DNA of 64,000 nt from an uncultured Actinomycetes bacterium. Its GTDB lineage: Bacteria; Actinomycetota; Thermoleophilia; RBG-16-64-13. The translations under genes and the position numbers were made by a program. This document shows positions 42,078 to 47,532 of this stretch, in pieces (position 1 is the stretch's first letter; every line of letters begins with the position of its first letter). The stretch is taken from assembly GCA_963747275.1 (NCBI GenBank), contig CAVVEI010000012.1:19066-83065 (forward strand), in the 5' to 3' direction. The notes below the pieces were generated by a model that did not search any database, was not told where the DNA came from, and saw only the letters and a program-made list of their open reading frames with translations.

Positions 42078-42149
42078 TGGGCGATACTGGATTTGAACCA
42101 GTGACTTCTGCAGTGTGAATGCAGCGCTCTCCCACTGAGCTAATCGCCC
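42078..42149 (-). tRNA. tRNA-Val (anticodon CAC)
   Basis: Minus strand: GGGCGAT-TA-GCTCAGTGGGAGAGC-G-CTGCA-TTCACAC-TGCAG-AAGTC-ACTGG-TTCAAAT-CCAGT-ATCGCCC-A. Full cloverleaf with the conserved GG and TTC loops. CCA is not encoded. Confidence 0.9.
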
Positions 42150-42283: not shown

Positions 42284-42526
42284 ATGCACGATGACCAGCC
42301 GGTCGCCAAGACTCTAGATTGTGTGGGTCTGTTCTGCCCAGAGCCCCTGTTCCAGACCCGCGAGGCCATGGACGGCCTGGCCGATGGCGACATCCTCGAG
42401 GTGTTCGCGGACGATCCCGCCGCCGAAGAAGACCTGACCCGGTTTGCCAAGCGGGCTGGCCACGAGGTGCTCTTGGTCGAGGATCAGGCCGATAGCAAGA
42501 GATTCCTTCTGCGCAAAGCTAGCTAG
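42284..42526 (+). CDS. TusA/SirA-family sulfur-carrier protein
   Basis: ATG 42284 after GGGAGGA. Active-site context LDCVGLFCPEPLFQTREAM (CPxP). Confidence 0.8.
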   Translation: MHDDQPVAKTLDCVGLFCPEPLFQTREAMDGLADGDILEVFADDPAAEEDLTRFAKRAGHEVLLVEDQADSKRFLLRKAS

Positions 42527-42538
42527 GAGGCGAGAGCC

Positions 42539-42901
42539 GTGAAAGACGAAAAGACCATCCTCTACGTGCAGACCAGCGACCAGCCCGAGCGCCAGTACTC
42601 CCCGCTCGTCTTGGCCCTAGCGGCCAAGGCCATGGACCTCAAGCCCATGGTCTACTACTTGGGCATGGGCCTCAAGGTGCTGCGGCCGGGCGAGGCCGAC
42701 AAGCTCCAGTTGGGCTCGTTCCCCAGTGTCAAAGACATGCTCGACAAGACTCTGAGCATGAACATACCCATATACGTGTGCGAGGCCTCCAAGCAGATGC
42801 TGGGCTGGGAGACTGCGGAACTGATCCCGGGAGTCAAGATAGTGGGCGCGGCCACTCTGAACGACCTTGCCCTGGACGCCGGCGCCACCATGTGGTTCTA
42901 G
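42539..42901 (+). CDS. DsrE/DsrF-family protein
   Basis: GTG start. ILYVQTSDQPERQYSPLVLALAAKAMDLKPMVYYLGMGL..IPIYVCEASKQMLG fits the DsrE fold with the conserved Cys. Confidence 0.7.
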   Translation: MKDEKTILYVQTSDQPERQYSPLVLALAAKAMDLKPMVYYLGMGLKVLRPGEADKLQLGSFPSVKDMLDKTLSMNIPIYVCEASKQMLGWETAELIPGVKIVGAATLNDLALDAGATMWF

Positions 42902-42911
42902 GCCGCGCCGC

Positions 42912-44105
42912 ATGCCCGCGCCCCTACCCGCACCCCTACGCCAAGACGAAGTCTATCTGGACTACCAGTCGGCCCGGCCCGTGGACCCGCGGGTGGTCGA
43001 GGCCATGCTGCCGTACTTCGGTGAGCGCTTCGGTAACCCCGCGTCGCTGCACGCGGTGGGCGACCGGGCCACCGATGCCTTGGAGTCCAGCCGCGCTGAA
43101 GTAGCCCGCTTCTTGTCGGCAAGCCCTGACGAGATCGTGTTCACGTCAGGCGCTACGGAGTCCAACAACCTGGCCCTGCTGGGCTACGCCAGGCGCAACC
43201 GGCGCTCGGGCGACCACGTGGTCATCTCTGAGGTGGAGCACATCTCGCTGCACAACATCGGCAAGCAGTTGGAGAAGGAGGGTTTCGCGGTCAGCAAGGT
43301 GCCCCCCGACCAGTTCGGCCGCATAGACCCCGACAAACTCCGCTCGCGCATCAAAGACGAGACCATCCTGGTGTCGGTGTGCTGGGCCAGCAACGAGATA
43401 GGCACCGTGCAGCCCATTCCCGCGATCGCGCAGATGCTCAAGGGCACCGGAGTGGCGCTGCACGTGGACGCAGTGGCAGCCGAGGGTCAGCTACCCCTGG
43501 ACATGTCTGCGGTGCCGGTGGACCTGCTGACCCTCTCCAGCAACGACATCTACGGGCCGCCCGGCCTGGGGGCGCTCTTTGTCCGCGAGGAAGTGAAGCT
43601 CGCGCCCGTATCCATAGGCGGCGGCCAGGAGCGAGGGCTGCGTTCGGGCACCGAGAACCTGCCGGCCATAGTCGGCATGGCCGCCGCGGCCCGCATCGCG
43701 GCAGAGGAGCTGCCCACCGAGGCGCCCCGGCTGGCCGCCCTGCGCGACCGGCTTATCCGCGAGGTTATGGCCGCCATCCCCGACGTGCACCTCAACGGCC
43801 ATCCGGTCGAACGCCTGCCCAACAACGCCCACCTCCGCTTCGCAGGCATCGAGGGCGAGTCACTGGTGTTGTCTCTCAGAGACGCCGGCGTAGCGGCCTC
43901 CACCGGCTCGGCCTGCTCCTCCAAGACGCTCGAGCCCTCGCACACCCTCATCTCCTGCGGGCTGCTGCACGAAGAAGCCCACGGTTCGCTGGAGTTCACC
44001 TTCGGACGGTTCAGCCAAGACTCCGATATCGACCGCGTGCTGGCCGTCCTGCCCGGCATTGTCAAACGGTTGCGGGACATGTCCCCGCTATACAAGAAGT
44101 CCTAG
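42912..44105 (+). CDS. class-V aminotransferase-fold cysteine-desulfurase homologue (IscS/NifS-like) lacking the canonical PLP-binding His-Lys
   Basis: YLDYQSARP, FTSGATESNN, ISEVEHISL, HVDA, GGGQERGLRSGTEN and the active-site loop GSACSS are present. Where IscS has SGHKIYGPKG this protein reads SSNDIYGPPG (N-D codons at 43542-43547). Confidence 0.75.
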   Translation: MPAPLPAPLRQDEVYLDYQSARPVDPRVVEAMLPYFGERFGNPASLHAVGDRATDALESSRAEVARFLSASPDEIVFTSGATESNNLALLGYARRNRRSGDHVVISEVEHISLHNIGKQLEKEGFAVSKVPPDQFGRIDPDKLRSRIKDETILVSVCWASNEIGTVQPIPAIAQMLKGTGVALHVDAVAAEGQLPLDMSAVPVDLLTLSSNDIYGPPGLGALFVREEVKLAPVSIGGGQERGLRSGTENLPAIVGMAAAARIAAEELPTEAPRLAALRDRLIREVMAAIPDVHLNGHPVERLPNNAHLRFAGIEGESLVLSLRDAGVAASTGSACSSKTLEPSHTLISCGLLHEEAHGSLEFTFGRFSQDSDIDRVLAVLPGIVKRLRDMSPLYKKS

Positions 44106-44116
44106 GGGGTACCCAG

Positions 44117-44920
44117 ATGAAATCCACACAGTACTCAGAGAAGACTCTCGACCACTTCCGCAACCCCCGCAACGTGGGCACCTTGGAGGGCGACGACGTC
44201 GCCATCGGCCGCGTGGGCAACCCGGTCTGCGGAGACCTCATGGAGATGTACGTGCGGGTCAAGGACGACCGCATAGCCGACATCAAGTTCCAGACCTTCG
44301 GCTGCGGCTCGGCCGTGGCCACCTCCAGCATGACCACCGAGTTGGTCATGGGCAAGACGCTGGACGAAGCCCTGGAGGTCACCCGCGCCGACGTGGCCGA
44401 CGCGCTCGACGGGCTGCCCCCCATCAAGATGCACTGCAGCAACTTGGCGGCCGACGCCCTGCACGACGCCATCAAGAACTGGCGCTCGGGCACGCGCCTC
44501 GCTCCCCTGGGCGAGGAGGCCATAGCCGCCGCCGGCAAGGGCTGCGGCGCCCGCGAGGTGACGGCGGTTCAGGGCCTGGACGAGTTCGCGGGCAAGGGCG
44601 TCTACACCTCGGTCGACGACCCGGCGACCCTCACCGACAAGCGGGTGCTGGTGCTCGACAAGGGGGTTGCTTCAGCGCAGTTGGCCCTGGAGCTGACCAA
44701 GGTCACCCCGCGCGTGGTCTTCGTCACCGAGCTCGACGCTCTGGGCCTCCCCGCCGAACTGGCGGCCTAGGTCAAGCGCTCAGACATCAAGACCCTGTAC
44801 CAGTCGCGGCTGCTGGCCGTGCGCGGCGAGGGCGAGGTGGAGAGGGTACTCATACACGATCTGGACGAAGACGACGAGTACGAACTCTTCGTCGATGCAG
44901 TGGTGCTGTTGGAGGCTTGA
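44117..44920 (+). pseudogene. IscU/NifU-type scaffold domain fused to a degenerate thioredoxin-reductase-like NAD(P)H-domain; in-frame TAG
   Basis: IscU part: GNPVCGDLM, FQTFGCGSAVATSS, IKMHCSNLAADAL. Extension: GKGVYTSVDDPATLTDKRVLVLDKGVASAQLALELTKVTPRVVFV..AA-TAG(44768-44770)-VKRSDIKTLYQSRLLAVRGEGEVERVLIHDLDEDDEYELFVDAVVLLE. The whole is one continuous frame. Confidence 0.65.
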
Positions 44921-44953: not shown

Positions 44954-47532
44954 TCACACCCTGAAGCGCCGCAGCCTCAGCGAGTTGGAGAGCACGCTCA
45001 CCGAGGAGAGCGCCATGGCCACCGCCGCGTACACCGGGTCGAGCAAGATGCCGAAGGCCGGGTAGAGCACTCCCGCCGCCACCGGGATGAGGGCGACGTT
45101 GTAGCCGAAGGCCCAGCCCAAATTCTGCTTGATTATTCGCATAGTCGCCCGGCTGAGACGGATGGCGGTACCGATGGGAGTGAGATCACCGCGCATGAGG
45201 GTCACATCGGCCGTCTCCATGGCCACGTCGGTACCGGTGCCTATGGCCAGGCCGATATCGGCTTGAGCCAGGGCCGGCGCGTCGTTTATGCCGTCGCCCA
45301 CCATGCCCACCACCTTGCCGGCAGCCTGCAGGTCTTTGATCGCCTGGGCCTTGCTCTCCGGCAAGACCTCAGCGAGCACGTTGGTGATTCCGGCCAGCTT
45401 GGCCACAGCTTCGGCCGTCTGCCGGTTGTCACCGGTGAGCATGAAGACCTCCAGCCCCAGACCCTGCAGCTCACGCACCGCCGCCACCGAGTCAGACTTG
45501 AGCACGTCGGCCACGCCTATCACGCCCGCCACCTTGCCCTCCACTACCACGAACATGGGGGTCTTGCCGTCGACAGCCATCTTGTCCGCGGCCGCTCCGA
45601 GCTCTCCGGGGGAGTGACCCCGTTCGTCCAGGAACCGCCGGTTGCCAAGCAACACCCGGACCGCCTTCTCTCCGGCTGAGCGTCGCCTCGATGCCCATGC
45701 CGGGCACGGCGGAGAACTCCTTGACCTCGAGCAACTCCAACCCCTGCGCCCGAGCAGCCTCCACGATAGCCTCGCCCAACGGATGCTCCGAACCCCGCTC
45801 GGCAGACGCGGCCAGTAGGAGCACCTCCCGCGCGGCGGCTTCGCGCGCCACCACCACATCGGTGACCTGAGGCTTGCCCTGGGTGAGGGTCCCGGTCTTG
45901 TCGAGCACCACCACGTCCAACTTGTGCGCCCGCTCCAGGGCTTCGCCGGAGCGGATGAGTATCCCGTTCTCGGCCCCCTTGCCCGTGCCCACCACGATGG
46001 CGGTGGGCGTAGCCAGGCCCATGGCGCAAGGGCAGGCGATGATCAGAACCGAGACGAAGGCCAGCATGGCCAGTGTGAAGACGGGGTCGGGTCCCAAGAA
46101 GTACCACAACAAGAAGGTGGCGATGGCGATCACCAGCACCACGGGCACGAAGATGCTGGCCACATAGTCGGCCAGTCTCTGGATAGGAGCCTTCGAGCCC
46201 TGAGCCTCCTCGACCAGCCGCACGATCTGGGCGAGGGCGGTGTCGCGCCCCACCTTGGTGGCGCGAAAACGGAACGACCCCGTGCGGTTGAGGGTCGCCC
46301 CGATGACTTCGTCACCAGGTCCTTTCTCCACCGGCAGCGACTCACCGGTGAGCATCGATTCGTCCACCGCCGAGCGGCCCTCGAGCACCTCGCCGTCCAC
46401 TGGTATCTTCTCGCCCGGCCGCACCACCACCACATCGCCCACCAGCACTTCGTCGACCGGGATGTCCATCTCCAGCGCAGCGCGCCAGCCGCCGCCGGAC
46501 GCAGCACCCGCGCCGTCTTGGGCTGCAGGCCTATGAGCCGCCGCATGGCCGCCGAAGTCTTGCCTTTGGCCCGCGCCTCCAGATAGCGTCCCAGCAGGAT
46601 CAGCCCGATGATGAGCACCGCCGAGTCGTAGTACACCGCGGCCTCGAAGCCCGCGCCCGCGGCGCCTTCGAACGCGCCTGGGAAGAACGTGACCGCCGCC
46701 GAGTATAGGTAGGCAGCCGAGGTGCCGACCGCGATCAGCGTGTTCATGTCGCTGGTCTTGTGTCGCAAGGCAGCCCACGCTCCGCGATAGAACTGCCAGC
46801 CTGCCCAGAACTGCACCGGCGTGGCCAGGATGAACTGTATGCGCCACTGCCACTCCATGTGCAGCCAGGAGTGGGGTATGAGCATCATGAGCATGAGCAC
46901 TGCCCCCACCACGAGGGCCAGCACGAACTTGACCATCAGCATGCGCACGCGCTTCCGCCGAGCCGCCTCGGCGACGGCCGTGGGGTCTGCGGCGGCCTCA
47001 CCGCCGGCGCCCGCGCCGTCCGCGCCGGCGGCCCCCAACACCAGCGTGTATCCGGCGCCCTTCACCACTTTGGCTATCTCAGCCGGGCTCACGGCGCCGG
47101 GCAGGTAGCTGACCGTGAGCTTCTCCGTGGCCAGGTTGACCGTGGCCTCGGTCACTCCCGGCACCCGCTGGACCACGCGGCCCACCCGCACCGCGCAGTT
47201 GGCGCAATCCATACCCAGCACCGGGAAGGTGGCCGTAGTGGCCGGCACGTTGTACCCGGCCTGCCGCGATGGCCGTCTACCACTTCGCCGGTGGAGGTGC
47301 GATGGGGGTTGTAGGTGACGGTCGCCCGCTCGACCGCCAAGGTTGACGGCCGACTGTCACACCCTGGGCACTCCCGCGATGGCCTTCTCCACCCGCGCCA
47401 CGCAGGCTGCGCAGTTCATGCCCTCCACGGGCAACTGCACCGTGTAGCTACCCGGCAGGCGGTGGTCCTCGTGGCCGACGCCTCGTGGCCCTCGTGCTCA
47501 GACACGTGATTGCGGTGTTCCTTCTCGTCCAT
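44954..47532 (-). pseudogene. copA: copper-translocating P1B-type ATPase CopA, many frameshifts as assembled
   Basis: His-rich N-terminus and two HMA domains (GMNCAACVARV, GMDCANCAVRV). CPC ([13 protein letters not shown]), DKTGTLT, MLTGDN and VGDGINDAPALA. Homology jumps between the three frames near 47478, 47270-47370 (several), 46500 and 45680. Confidence 0.85.

What the first reader, a model, noticed from the sequence alone, without database searches (positions are those of the whole stretch)
42912..44105. Cysteine-desulfurase homologue in a TusA-DsrE-IscS-IscU cluster lacks the PLP Schiff-base lysine
The protein aligns along its whole length with IscS/NifS. It has ATESNN, EHxS, HVDA, GGGQERGLRSGTEN and the catalytic loop GSACSS. 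At the invariant S-x-H-K-(I/F)-(Y/H)-G-P-K-G segment, however, it reads S-S-N-D-I-Y-G-P-P-G (AAC GAC at 43542-43547). The downstream HVDAxQ Gln is Ala (HVDAVAAEG).

Two nucleotide changes would be needed to obtain Lys, so this is not a single indel or substitution artefact.

A desulfurase fold without the PLP lysine, encoded next to TusA, DsrE and an IscU scaffold, could be a non-catalytic sulfur-relay or adaptor protein. It could also use a different chemistry.
Basis: partly seen in the sequence, partly recalled or inferred. Interest (0 to 1): 0.6.

Follow-up and report, generated by a model that had tools for sequence, protein, structure and literature searches.

The report
Lysine-less IscS with sulfur-carrier genes
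This gene is a bacterial copy of the already known "dead" cysteine desulfurase of Archaeoglobus fulgidus, which partners the IscU scaffold without making sulfur from cysteine; its near-constant linkage to the sulfur-carrier genes tusA and dsrE suggests where such systems get their sulfur.

Summary
ORF 42912-44105 (+) is a full-length class-V aminotransferase (IscS/NifS) fold. It reads S-S-N-D-I-Y-G-P-P-G, with Asp212 (GAC, 43545-43547) in the column of the PLP Schiff-base lysine.

This is not an error. All 120 closest homologues, and 117 loci from other species' genomes, carry the same N-D.

It is not new as a kind. The best solved-structure match (E 2e-141, 55% identity) is A. fulgidus IscS2 (PDB 4EB5/4HVK), which has the identical SSNDIYGP. 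According to a 2022 review, that protein has no desulfurase activity, binds PMP, and gives its loop cysteine as a ligand to the [2Fe-2S] cluster on IscU.

Two further catalytic residues are lost here: the PLP-O3' Gln becomes Ala189 and the substrate-carboxylate Arg becomes Glu361. The loop Cys335 is kept.

What I add:
- tusA lies directly upstream of this IscS type in 85 of 91 loci with enough flank, across Archaea and Bacteria. dsrE lies between them in 57 of those 91.
- Neither gene lies beside any of 11 other IscS-type paralogues (10 of them lysine-bearing) from the same genomes.
- Among 41 related genomes the cassette is present or absent as a unit.
- This genome also has a canonical NifS(K)-IscU pair and no detectable SufB/D.

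The most likely reading is a second, PLP-independent IscS*-IscU assembly complex fed by a TusA/DsrE persulfide relay. The relay step is inferred.

The parts
42284..42526 (+). tusA: 80-aa sulfur carrier with the CPxP cysteine (CVGLFCPEP) and an ADDPAAEED motif
   Evidence: Pfam TusA E 1.2e-22 over the full profile. NCBIfam TusA E 1.4e-15, below cut-off. GL.CP, including the CPxP cysteine, and ADDPAA are at least 90% conserved in 92 TusA sequences from the scanned loci. An adjacent orthologue occurs in 17 of 17 related genomes that have the lysine-less IscS.
42539..42901 (+). dsrE-like gene: 120-aa single-domain DsrE-family protein with a conserved cysteine (IYVCEASKQMLGW)
   Evidence: Pfam DsrE E 1.2e-12 and DrsE_2 E 1.8e-13. 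Only a faint, sub-threshold NCBIfam DsrE2 match. The Cys is at least 90% conserved in 60 cassette copies. The gene lies between tusA and iscS in 57 of 91 loci.
42912..44105 (+). Lysine-less IscS (IscS*), 397 aa, class-V aminotransferase fold
   Evidence: Aminotran_5 full length. Best PDB hit is A. fulgidus IscS2 4EB5/4HVK, E 2.2e-141, 55% identity. It scores below every NCBIfam equivalog cut-off (NifS 449.8 against 530.75 bits).
43542..43547 (+). Codons Asn211-Asp212 (AAC GAC) in place of the His-Lys of the PLP Schiff-base motif
   Evidence: Identical SSNDIYGP in A. fulgidus IscS2.
43476..43478 (+). Codon Ala189 (GCA) in place of the Gln of HxDAxQ, which contacts PLP O3'
   Evidence: The canonical set has Q in 96% of sequences; the lysine-less clade has A in 93%.
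43914..43916 (+). Codon Cys335 (TGC), the retained cysteine of the mobile loop GSACSS
   Evidence: Conserved in 99% of the clade. It is equivalent to the A. fulgidus IscS cysteine that ligates the [2Fe-2S] cluster in 4EB5 (literature).
43992..43994 (+). Codon Glu361 (GAG) in place of the Arg that is invariant in canonical enzymes (substrate alpha-carboxylate site)
   Evidence: The canonical set has R in 98%; the lysine-less clade has E, L, V or Q. The role of this Arg is from my own knowledge of E. coli IscS Arg354.
44117..44920 (+). iscU scaffold (all cluster ligands present) fused to a degenerate thioredoxin-reductase NADPH-type domain; the frame is interrupted by TAG at 44768-44770
   Evidence: NifU_N E 7.8e-46. 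GNPVCGD, FGCG and MHCSNLA are conserved. Relatives encode 257-278 aa without a stop. The extension matches TRX_reduct profile positions 109-231, E 4.9e-10. An AlphaFold model of the orthologue in L011 (pLDDT 90) matches IscU structures with its N-terminal half and TrxR NADPH domains (3F8D, rmsd 1.8 A over 120 columns) with its C-terminal half.

Best explanation
The gene encodes a bacterial (Actinomycetota-type) orthologue of the Archaeoglobus-type lysine-less IscS, written IscS* here.

It keeps the desulfurase fold and the mobile-loop cysteine (Cys335). It has lost the Schiff-base lysine (Asp212), the neighbouring His (Asn211), the PLP-O3' Gln (Ala189) and the substrate-binding Arg (Glu361). 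It therefore cannot abstract sulfur from cysteine.

It works as the partner of the IscU encoded 11 bp downstream. By homology with the solved A. fulgidus complex, an (IscS*-IscU)2 complex assembles a [2Fe-2S] cluster, with the IscS* loop cysteine as fourth ligand and/or persulfide shuttle.

Inferred step: the sulfur comes as a protein-bound persulfide from the two carriers encoded directly upstream, DsrE-like then TusA (CPxP Cys) then IscS* Cys335 or IscU. The relay would be loaded either from an inorganic or low-molecular-weight sulfur source, or from the canonical NifS that the genome also has.

The four genes form one operon-like cassette with gaps of 12, 10 and 11 bp. It is a second Fe-S assembly module, paralogous to the genome's canonical NifS(K)-IscU pair.
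For: Identity:
- Best PDB match is A. fulgidus IscS2 (4EB5/4EB7/4HVK), E 2.2e-141, 55% identity, with identical SSNDIYGP. The second hit is its D199K mutant 4R5F.
- That protein is reported to be inactive, to bind PMP, and to ligate the IscU cluster through its Cys (PMC8918507; PMC13066941; PMC7585200).

Signature:
- Lost: K to D, Q to A (93% of the clade), R to E/L/V/Q.
- Retained: Thr78, His110, Asp186 and Cys335 (99%).

Purifying selection: N-D is present in 120 of 120 close homologues and in 117 IscS-like loci of other species.

Cassette:
- tusA is directly upstream in 56 of 60 archaeal and 29 of 31 bacterial loci with enough flank.
- dsrE lies between in 31 of 60 and 26 of 31.
- iscU lies downstream in 58 of 63 and 28 of 32.
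- Control: 0 of 11 other IscS-type paralogue loci from the same genomes (10 lysine-bearing, 1 with a different substitution) have tusA or dsrE within about 1.4 kb. Fisher p = 7e-11.

Phyletic pattern in 41 relatives:
- 17 genomes have IscS*, and all 17 have an adjacent TusA orthologue of at least 61% identity. Fifteen of the 17 have the DsrE orthologue.
- The 24 genomes without IscS* have neither.
- The carrier cysteines are at least 90% conserved.

Own genome: a canonical NifS (SAHKLYGPKG, HCDAVQ) with its own IscU lies at C17:115131-116678. No SUFBD_core match was found.
Against: Nothing was measured for this protein. Inactivity, cofactor state and complex formation all rest on a relative at 55% identity.

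Gene adjacency does not show that sulfur flows from TusA/DsrE into IscS*-IscU. In E. coli the flow is from IscS to TusA.

dsrE is missing from about half of the archaeal cassettes, and tusA from 6 of 91 loci, so neither carrier is strictly required.

Eleven of 12 sampled genomes that carry IscS* also carry a lysine-bearing class-V enzyme. A cysteine-independent route is therefore not forced.

The A. fulgidus authors proposed free sulfide as the source (as cited). That would need no relay.

The cassette might be decaying here. Reads could not be checked.
Confidence: 0.62

Rival explanations
1. IscS* is only a structural and ligand partner of IscU, and the cluster sulfur is free sulfide. TusA and DsrE are export carriers or regulators: they take sulfur or a signal away from the complex (for example towards tRNA thiolation or molybdenum cofactor), or they tune the complex by competing with IscU for a binding site, as E. 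coli TusA does on IscS.
For: Free sulfide was the source proposed for A. fulgidus. MIS and SMS systems are said to be able to use sulfide. E. coli TusA is an acceptor of IscS sulfur and competes with IscU (titles and abstracts: PMC2854127, PMC11302665). dsrE is absent from about half of the archaeal cassettes. Carriers of this cassette are mostly anaerobes from sulfidic settings, judging by the record titles.
Against: An IscS that cannot generate a persulfide has nothing obvious to hand to an acceptor TusA. The linkage to tusA is specific to the dead paralogue and absent from the live one in the same genomes (0 of 11). That is the opposite of what an acceptor role predicts.
Confidence: 0.25
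2. The lysine-less protein is still an enzyme. It would use non-covalently bound PMP or PLP for a chemistry other than cysteine desulfuration, as the lysine-less PMP-dependent sugar dehydratases do.
For: A. fulgidus IscS2 crystallised with PMP bound. Several cofactor-contacting residues (Thr78, His110, Asp186) stay conserved in the clade. ND-specific conserved residues exist and have no assigned role: Lys118 (98%), Arg309 (99%), Ser112 and Asn115. The dehydratase precedent is from my own knowledge.
Against: The substrate-carboxylate Arg and the O3' Gln are both lost and replaced by variable residues. No activity was reported for the A. fulgidus protein. The strict pairing with IscU, and the retained loop Cys, point to scaffold work.
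Confidence: 0.05
3. Assembly artefact or pseudogene: the N-D is a sequencing error, or decay in an error-rich metagenome assembly.
For: The neighbouring iscU has an in-frame TAG.
Against: The ORF is intact over 397 codons. The same N-D, Ala189 and loop Cys occur in 120 of 120 close homologues and in 117 loci from other species, including the crystallised A. fulgidus protein. Restoring Lys needs two substitutions.
Confidence: 0.01

Closest known systems
Archaeoglobus fulgidus IscS2 with IscU (PDB 4EB5, 4EB7, 4HVK; D199K variant 4R5F)
   Same: Same fold and length, 55% identity, and an identical SSNDIYGP with Asp in the lysine column. It also lacks the HxDAxQ Gln (HIDATASVG) and the substrate Arg (GTLLLTLG). 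It has the same GSACSSKTL(E/Q)PSH loop and an IscU encoded next door. In Archaeoglobus sp. JdFR-27 and Archaeoglobi JdFR-42 the orthologous gene is also preceded by tusA, and in JdFR-42 by dsrE as well (L076, L113).
   Different: Here the host is a bacterium: the nearest sequences are from Actinomycetota, Thermoleophilia and Coriobacteriia MAGs. Here IscU carries a roughly 130-aa TrxR-NADPH-like extension, which the Archaeoglobi copies lack. The window protein also lacks the GPKG lysine (GPPG). No biochemistry exists for this protein.
Canonical type I cysteine desulfurases IscS/NifS/NFS1 (EC 2.8.1.7), for example E. coli IscS 1P3W/3LVL
   Same: Class-V aminotransferase fold, a mobile Cys loop, and pairing with an IscU-type scaffold. 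HMMER E values of 1e-98 to 1e-100. About 45% identity to the genome's own NifS.
   Different: The Schiff-base Lys, the preceding His, the O3' Gln and the substrate Arg are all replaced. The protein falls below all NCBIfam equivalog cut-offs. In E. coli, TusA accepts sulfur from IscS; here the partner IscS cannot produce it.
MIS (minimal ISC system, MisS-MisU) of Archaea and anaerobic Bacteria, including M. acetivorans IscS1, which also lacks the lysine
   Same: A two-gene IscS-like and IscU-like core without HscBA, ferredoxin, IscA or IscR. It occurs in anaerobes and sometimes in several copies per genome. This genome has two such pairs.
   Different: MIS is described as having an active cysteine desulfurase and no further components. 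This subtype has a dead one plus one or two dedicated sulfur-carrier genes.
TusA/DsrE sulfur-relay cascades of sulfur oxidisers (Rhd-DsrE3-TusA feeding sHdr or rDsr)
   Same: A CPxP TusA and a single-domain DsrE-family protein with a conserved Cys are encoded side by side. In those systems sulfur passes between them as persulfide or thiosulfonate.
   Different: There are no shdr, dsr or rhodanese genes here. The DsrE-like protein matches no curated DsrE subgroup above threshold. The likely recipient is an Fe-S scaffold complex, not a dissimilatory enzyme.

Membership tests
Archaeoglobus-type lysine-less IscS (inactive desulfurase paralogue) | Full-length class-V aminotransferase (IscS/NifS) fold | tested here: met
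   Aminotran_5 profile positions 1-371 of 371, E 1.3e-70. End-to-end alignment to 4EB5 chain A.
Archaeoglobus-type lysine-less IscS (inactive desulfurase paralogue) | Asp in the column of the PLP Schiff-base lysine (A. fulgidus Asp199), within S-S-N-D-I-Y-G-P | tested here: met
   Asp212 aligns with Asp199 of 4EB5 and with Lys199 of the D199K mutant 4R5F. The column is K in 45 of 45 canonical sequences.
Archaeoglobus-type lysine-less IscS (inactive desulfurase paralogue) | Retained mobile-loop cysteine that can ligate the IscU cluster | tested here: met
   GSACSS with Cys335, conserved in 99% of the clade.
Archaeoglobus-type lysine-less IscS (inactive desulfurase paralogue) | Adjacent IscU with the three Cys, Asp and His cluster-site residues | tested here: met
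   iscU starts 11 bp downstream. GNPVCGD, FGCG and MHCS are present.
Archaeoglobus-type lysine-less IscS (inactive desulfurase paralogue) | Groups with the A. fulgidus-type sequences rather than with canonical IscS/NifS in a tree | tested here: met
   In a FastTree, 98 of 99 N-D sequences, including three Archaeoglobi/Methanophagales copies and the window, lie on one side of a branch with weak support (79). The A. fulgidus type-strain sequence itself was not in the tree.
Archaeoglobus-type lysine-less IscS (inactive desulfurase paralogue) | No cysteine desulfurase activity; non-covalent PMP/PLP; (IscS-IscU)2 complex | not testable with these tools
   Known only for the A. fulgidus protein.
Canonical cysteine desulfurase IscS/NifS (EC 2.8.1.7) | Schiff-base lysine in S-x-H-K | tested here: not met
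   N-D at positions 211-212.
Canonical cysteine desulfurase IscS/NifS (EC 2.8.1.7) | HxDAxQ glutamine and the substrate-binding arginine | tested here: not met
   Ala189 and Glu361. The canonical set has Q in 96% and R in 98%.
Canonical cysteine desulfurase IscS/NifS (EC 2.8.1.7) | Score above the curated NCBIfam equivalog cut-off | tested here: not met
   NifS 449.8 against 530.75 bits; IscS 393.2 against 548 and 381.8 against 643.2.
MIS (minimal ISC system, MisS-MisU) | IscS-like and IscU-like pair without chaperones, ferredoxin or A-type carrier in the locus | tested here: met
   The cassette is tusA-dsrE-iscS*-iscU only, flanked by tRNA-Val and a convergent copA.
MIS (minimal ISC system, MisS-MisU) | MisS is an active cysteine desulfurase, as MIS is described in the literature | tested here: not met
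   The catalytic Lys, Gln and Arg are absent. This judgement is from sequence only; no assay was done.
TusA sulfur carrier | TusA fold with the CPxP cysteine | tested here: met
   Pfam TusA 1-70 of 70, E 1.2e-22; CVGLFCPEP.
DsrE family sulfur carrier | DsrE fold with the conserved active-site cysteine | tested here: met
   Pfam DsrE 3-116 of 116, E 1.2e-12; VCEAS Cys at least 90% conserved. The subgroup (DsrE2 to DsrE5) is unassigned: the NCBIfam DsrE2 match is only 24.8 against 210 bits.

The most novel reading that the evidence does not exclude
The lysine-less IscS clade, together with its almost obligatory TusA and frequent DsrE-like partner, defines a distinct, cysteine-desulfurase-independent branch of ISC/MIS-type Fe-S assembly. 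In it, sulfur reaches the IscS* loop cysteine and IscU as a carrier-bound persulfide instead of being made by PLP chemistry. The module is widespread in anaerobic Archaea (Asgard groups, Bathyarchaeota, Archaeoglobi, Methanotrichaceae, Methanocellales, Thermoplasmatota, Hadarchaeota). The tree suggests it has spread to several bacterial phyla, including the Actinomycetota lineage of this window.
Probability: 0.4. Interest if true: 0.7.

Novelty: new member of a known kind. Interest (0 to 1): 0.42.

Why it matters
The lysine-less IscS itself has been known since the A. fulgidus structures of 2012-2015, so the headline observation is not a discovery.

A 2022 review of cysteine desulfurases still lists one question as open: how does the A. 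fulgidus IscS-IscU complex obtain sulfur without desulfurase chemistry?

The comparative result here gives that question a concrete candidate answer. TusA is found next to the dead paralogue in 85 of 91 loci of both domains. It is never found next to the live paralogues of the same genomes (10 lysine-bearing loci and one with a different substitution). In the window's relatives it is gained and lost together with the dead paralogue. I found no paper describing this in the held library. The answer can be tested with four small proteins.

The result also shows that this module is not an archaeal curiosity. It is common in Asgard archaea and occurs in several bacterial phyla, often as a second system beside a canonical NifS-IscU pair.

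Tried and rejected
1. Two regular-expression tallies of the motif (and part) failed or misplaced the column. I replaced them with MAFFT column extraction.

The accepted pattern fixes Ile after N-D, so N-D-[LV] variants were not sampled.

There is no read-level check of codons 211-212 or of the TAG in iscU.

4. Pagnier et al. 2015 is not held. Statements on A. fulgidus IscS come from reviews and a discussion section.

5. Four literature searches for a described TusA/DsrE-IscS*-IscU cassette found none. The library lacks most subscription journals, so absence is weak evidence.

6. I looked for an alternative lysine. None is gained in the clade near the active site. Lys118, which is ND-specific and 98% conserved, lies far from the motif in sequence and has no assigned role.

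7. I considered whether IscS* is the genome's only desulfurase-like gene. It is not: a canonical NifS and a further SGHK class-V enzyme exist.

8. tblastn found only one TusA in the genome. The more sensitive search found a second, distant TusA-like ORF (36% identity) at C12:128316-128519, outside the window.

9. I did not model the IscS* structure, because a crystal structure of a 55%-identical orthologue exists.

10. I did not test TusA docking. Only single chains can be folded with these tools.
Full report
OBSERVATION

The ORF 42912-44105 (+) translates without interruption to 397 residues. Codons 211 and 212 are AAC GAC (43542-43547), inside L-S-S-N-D-I-Y-G-P-P-G. Pfam Aminotran_5 matches from profile position 1 to 371 of 371 (E 1.3e-70).

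Three independent alignments place Asp212 in the column of the Schiff-base lysine:
- HMMER against solved structures.
- MAFFT with 150 representatives at 50% clustering, where the column is K in 129 of 151 aligned sequences.
- MAFFT with 45 canonical sequences, where it is K in 45 of 45.

No local shift supplies a lysine, and the lysine of the following G-P-K-G is itself Pro here.

It is not an assembly error. All 120 closest database homologues (79-96% identity) read S-S-N-D, H-V-D-A-V-A and G-S-A-C-S-S.

WHAT IT IS

The best match among all PDB sequences is A. fulgidus 'probable cysteine desulfurase 2' (4EB5, 4EB7, 4HVK; E 2.2e-141). It is 55% identical over 383 columns and has the identical S-S-N-D-I-Y-G-P. 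The second hit is the engineered D199K variant 4R5F. Canonical IscS, NifS and NFS1 follow at E about 1e-100.

According to a 2022 review (PMC8918507), A. fulgidus IscS:
- has Asp199 and PMP in place of the conserved Lys-PLP,
- has no desulfurase activity,
- is proposed to act as a scaffold partner that gives one Cys ligand to the [2Fe-2S] cluster of the IscS-IscU complex.

The same review calls the sulfur source an open question. M. acetivorans IscS1 also lacks the lysine (PMC7585200). The variant is therefore already described, and the window holds a bacterial member.

BEYOND THE LYSINE

I compared 99 N-D sequences with 45 lysine-bearing relatives. Positions that are nearly invariant in the canonical set but changed in the clade:
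- Gln to Ala189 (93% Ala in the clade).
- Arg to Glu361 (E, L, V or Q in the clade). This is the substrate-carboxylate arginine, Arg354 of E. coli IscS by my own knowledge.
- The N-terminal A-T-T motif (positions 20-22).
- Partly the Asn of the A-N-N-E motif (position 160).

Positions kept: Thr78, His110, Asp186 and the loop Cys335 (99%).

The N-D column itself is 100% by construction, because these loci were found by that motif. The pattern is that of a protein that has given up cysteine binding and aldimine chemistry. It keeps a cofactor-shaped pocket and the mobile cysteine. NCBIfam places it below every equivalog cut-off (NifS 449.8 against 530.75 bits).

The clade also has conserved residues of its own with no assigned role: Lys118, Arg309, Ser112 and Asn115.

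DISTRIBUTION

Of these, 117 are IscS-like.

- Most are archaeal: Promethearchaeota and other Asgard groups, Thorarchaeota, Bathyarchaeota, Archaeoglobi, Methanotrichaceae, Methanocellales, Methanophagales, Syntrophoarchaeum, Hadarchaeum and Thermoplasmatota.
- About a third are bacterial: Actinomycetota including Thermoleophilia and Coriobacteriia, Deltaproteobacteria/Thermodesulfobacteriota, Aminicenantes, Cloacimonadota, Stahlbacteria, Spirochaetota, Rokubacteria and Syntrophomonas.

In a FastTree, 98 of 99 N-D sequences fall on one side of a weakly supported branch (79), together with a few other lysine-less representatives (S-D, G-P, N-S, S-A). The window sits in an Actinomycetota subclade, inside a bacterial group that is itself nested among Asgard sequences. 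One Rokubacteria lineage is a separate lysine-less origin inside canonical sequences. The root is not inferred, so the direction of transfer is only suggested.

THE CASSETTE

In the window four genes follow one another on the + strand with gaps of 12, 10 and 11 bp:
- tusA (42284-42526; CPxP cysteine).
- A 120-aa dsrE-like gene (42539-42901; conserved Cys).
- iscS* (42912-44105).
- iscU (44117-44920).

The cassette lies between a divergent tRNA-Val and a convergent copA.

Counts over the 117 foreign loci, using only loci with enough flank:

| Feature | Archaea | Bacteria |
|---|---|---|
| tusA directly upstream, same strand | 56 of 60 | 29 of 31 |
| dsrE between tusA and iscS* | 31 of 60 | 26 of 31 |
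| iscU downstream | 58 of 63 | 28 of 32 |
| C-terminal extension on IscU | 31 of 57 | 22 of 27 |

Archaeoglobus sp. JdFR-27 and Archaeoglobi JdFR-42 show the same arrangement (L076, L113).

As a control I took 11 other IscS-type paralogue loci from the same genomes, each with about 1.4 kb on either side. Ten are lysine-bearing; one (L142) carries Thr at that position. None has tusA or dsrE nearby, while about half have an iscU. Fisher p = 7e-11.

Among the 41 nearest genomes:
- 17 carry IscS*, and all 17 have a TusA orthologue of at least 61% identity a few hundred bases upstream.
- 15 of those 17 also have the DsrE orthologue.
- The other 24 have neither, only distant TusA paralogues of 41% identity or less.

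The cassette is thus inherited and lost as a unit. The carrier cysteines and the IscU ligands are at least 90% conserved across the cassettes.

THE REST OF THE GENOME

The assembly is 2.08 Mb, about 81% complete, and has many frame disruptions. It has no SUFBD_core match. It has exactly two NifU_N scaffolds:
- the one in the cassette,
- a 125-aa IscU immediately downstream of a canonical NifS/IscS (S-A-H-K-L-Y-G-P-K-G, H-C-D-A-V-Q, G-S-A-C-T-T) at C17:115131-116678.

A further class-V enzyme with S-G-H-K lies on C14. IscS* is therefore a second, paralogous module, not the cell's only route to Fe-S clusters. Eleven of 12 sampled IscS*-bearing genomes from other phyla likewise hold a lysine-bearing class-V enzyme.

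THE IscU EXTENSION

The window's iscU frame runs on for about 130 codons beyond the scaffold domain. It is broken by TAG at 44768-44770. Relatives encode 257-278 residues with a sense codon there.

The extension matches positions 109-231 of the thioredoxin-reductase model (E 4.9e-10). An AlphaFold model of the orthologue in L011 (pLDDT 90.3) has two parts. The first is an IscU domain, with top hits Methanothrix-type IscU 7C8M and A. fulgidus IscU 4EB5_C. The second is a TrxR NADPH-type Rossmann domain (S. solfataricus TrxR 3F8D, rmsd 1.8 A over 120 columns, 25% identity).

The CxxC and the GGGxxA motifs are not conserved, so a redox or NADPH role is doubtful.

MECHANISM

Shown by others for a 55%-identical orthologue: no desulfurase activity, and an (IscS-IscU)2 complex in which the IscS loop cysteine ligates the [2Fe-2S] cluster.

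Shown here: the same active-site losses plus two more, the retained cysteine, the operon, the specificity of the tusA/dsrE linkage, and its phyletic coupling.

Inferred: sulfur reaches IscS* Cys335 or IscU as a persulfide carried by TusA. TusA would be loaded through the DsrE-like protein or by the canonical NifS. The relay would replace the missing PLP step.

The main rival is that free sulfide feeds the scaffold and TusA/DsrE do something else. Sequence alone cannot exclude this. It fits poorly with tusA being attached to the dead paralogue and never to the live one.

A PMP-dependent new chemistry is unlikely, given the loss of the substrate site. An artefact is excluded by the orthologues.

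NOVELTY

The lysine-less IscS is a known kind, and this is a new bacterial member. I found no paper in the held library describing the tusA/dsrE linkage, but the library is incomplete. Other agents of this scan have noted the same cassette in other genomes. I re-derived the counts independently here, so those notes are not used as evidence.

Noticed in passing
window 44768-44770: There is an in-frame TAG inside the iscU-TrxR-like gene. The frame continues to a TGA at 44918-44920, and relatives encode 257-278 aa with a sense codon here (His in L009). This is either an assembly error in an error-rich contig or a real truncation that removes the last 50 residues.
   Followed up: partly
window 44954-47248 (-): The copper-transporting P-type ATPase (copA) is split over three overlapping minus-strand ORFs (44954-45859, 45492-46853, 46130-47248).
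   Followed up: no
window 42078-42149 (-): A tRNA-Val (anticodon CAC) lies divergent from the cassette, with a sigma-70-like promoter match at 42194-42165 (-). The cassette's own promoter must lie in the roughly 130 bp between them. No + strand promoter match was found.
   Followed up: partly
G000:C17:115131-116678 (-) (L001, L129): A canonical NifS/IscS (SAHKLYGPKG, HCDAVQ) sits with its own 125-aa IscU. The genome thus has two IscS-IscU pairs and no SufB/D match in an assembly about 81% complete.
   Followed up: yes
P0001 residues 112, 115, 118, 309, 339 (window 43245-43247, 43254-43256, 43263-43265, 43836-43838, 43926-43928): Ser112, Asn115, Lys118, Arg309 and Thr339 are 95-99% conserved in the lysine-less clade but variable in canonical IscS/NifS. 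They may mark a clade-specific site (partner binding?).
   Followed up: no
L019 (Rokubacteria MAG) and representatives P0165, P0138, P0170, P0196, P0213, P0230, P0238, P0252, P0258, P0268: A second group of lysine-less IscS-like proteins (N-D, Q-G, H-T, Q-Q, H-R, R-S, N-T, Q-S, N-Q) branches inside canonical sequences, apart from the main N-D clade. Loss of the lysine seems to have happened more than once. L019 has tusA upstream but no iscU downstream.
   Followed up: partly
L142 (Promethearchaeota PPR_0005, G045:C1:2026952-2028040): The same genome that has the N-D cassette has another IscS-like gene reading A-A-P-T-F-Y-G-P-K-G (Thr in the lysine column, Leu for the substrate Arg, Gln kept). 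It has an iscU downstream and no tusA.
   Followed up: no
G000:C12:128316-128519 (-), outside the window: A second, distant TusA-like ORF (36% identity to the cassette TusA, E 1.5e-8) was found by the HMMER-based search but missed by tblastn.
   Followed up: no
L039 and L111: In two archaeal loci iscU is not adjacent to iscS* but 2.4-3 kb further downstream on the same strand, so other genes can be inserted into the cassette.
   Followed up: no
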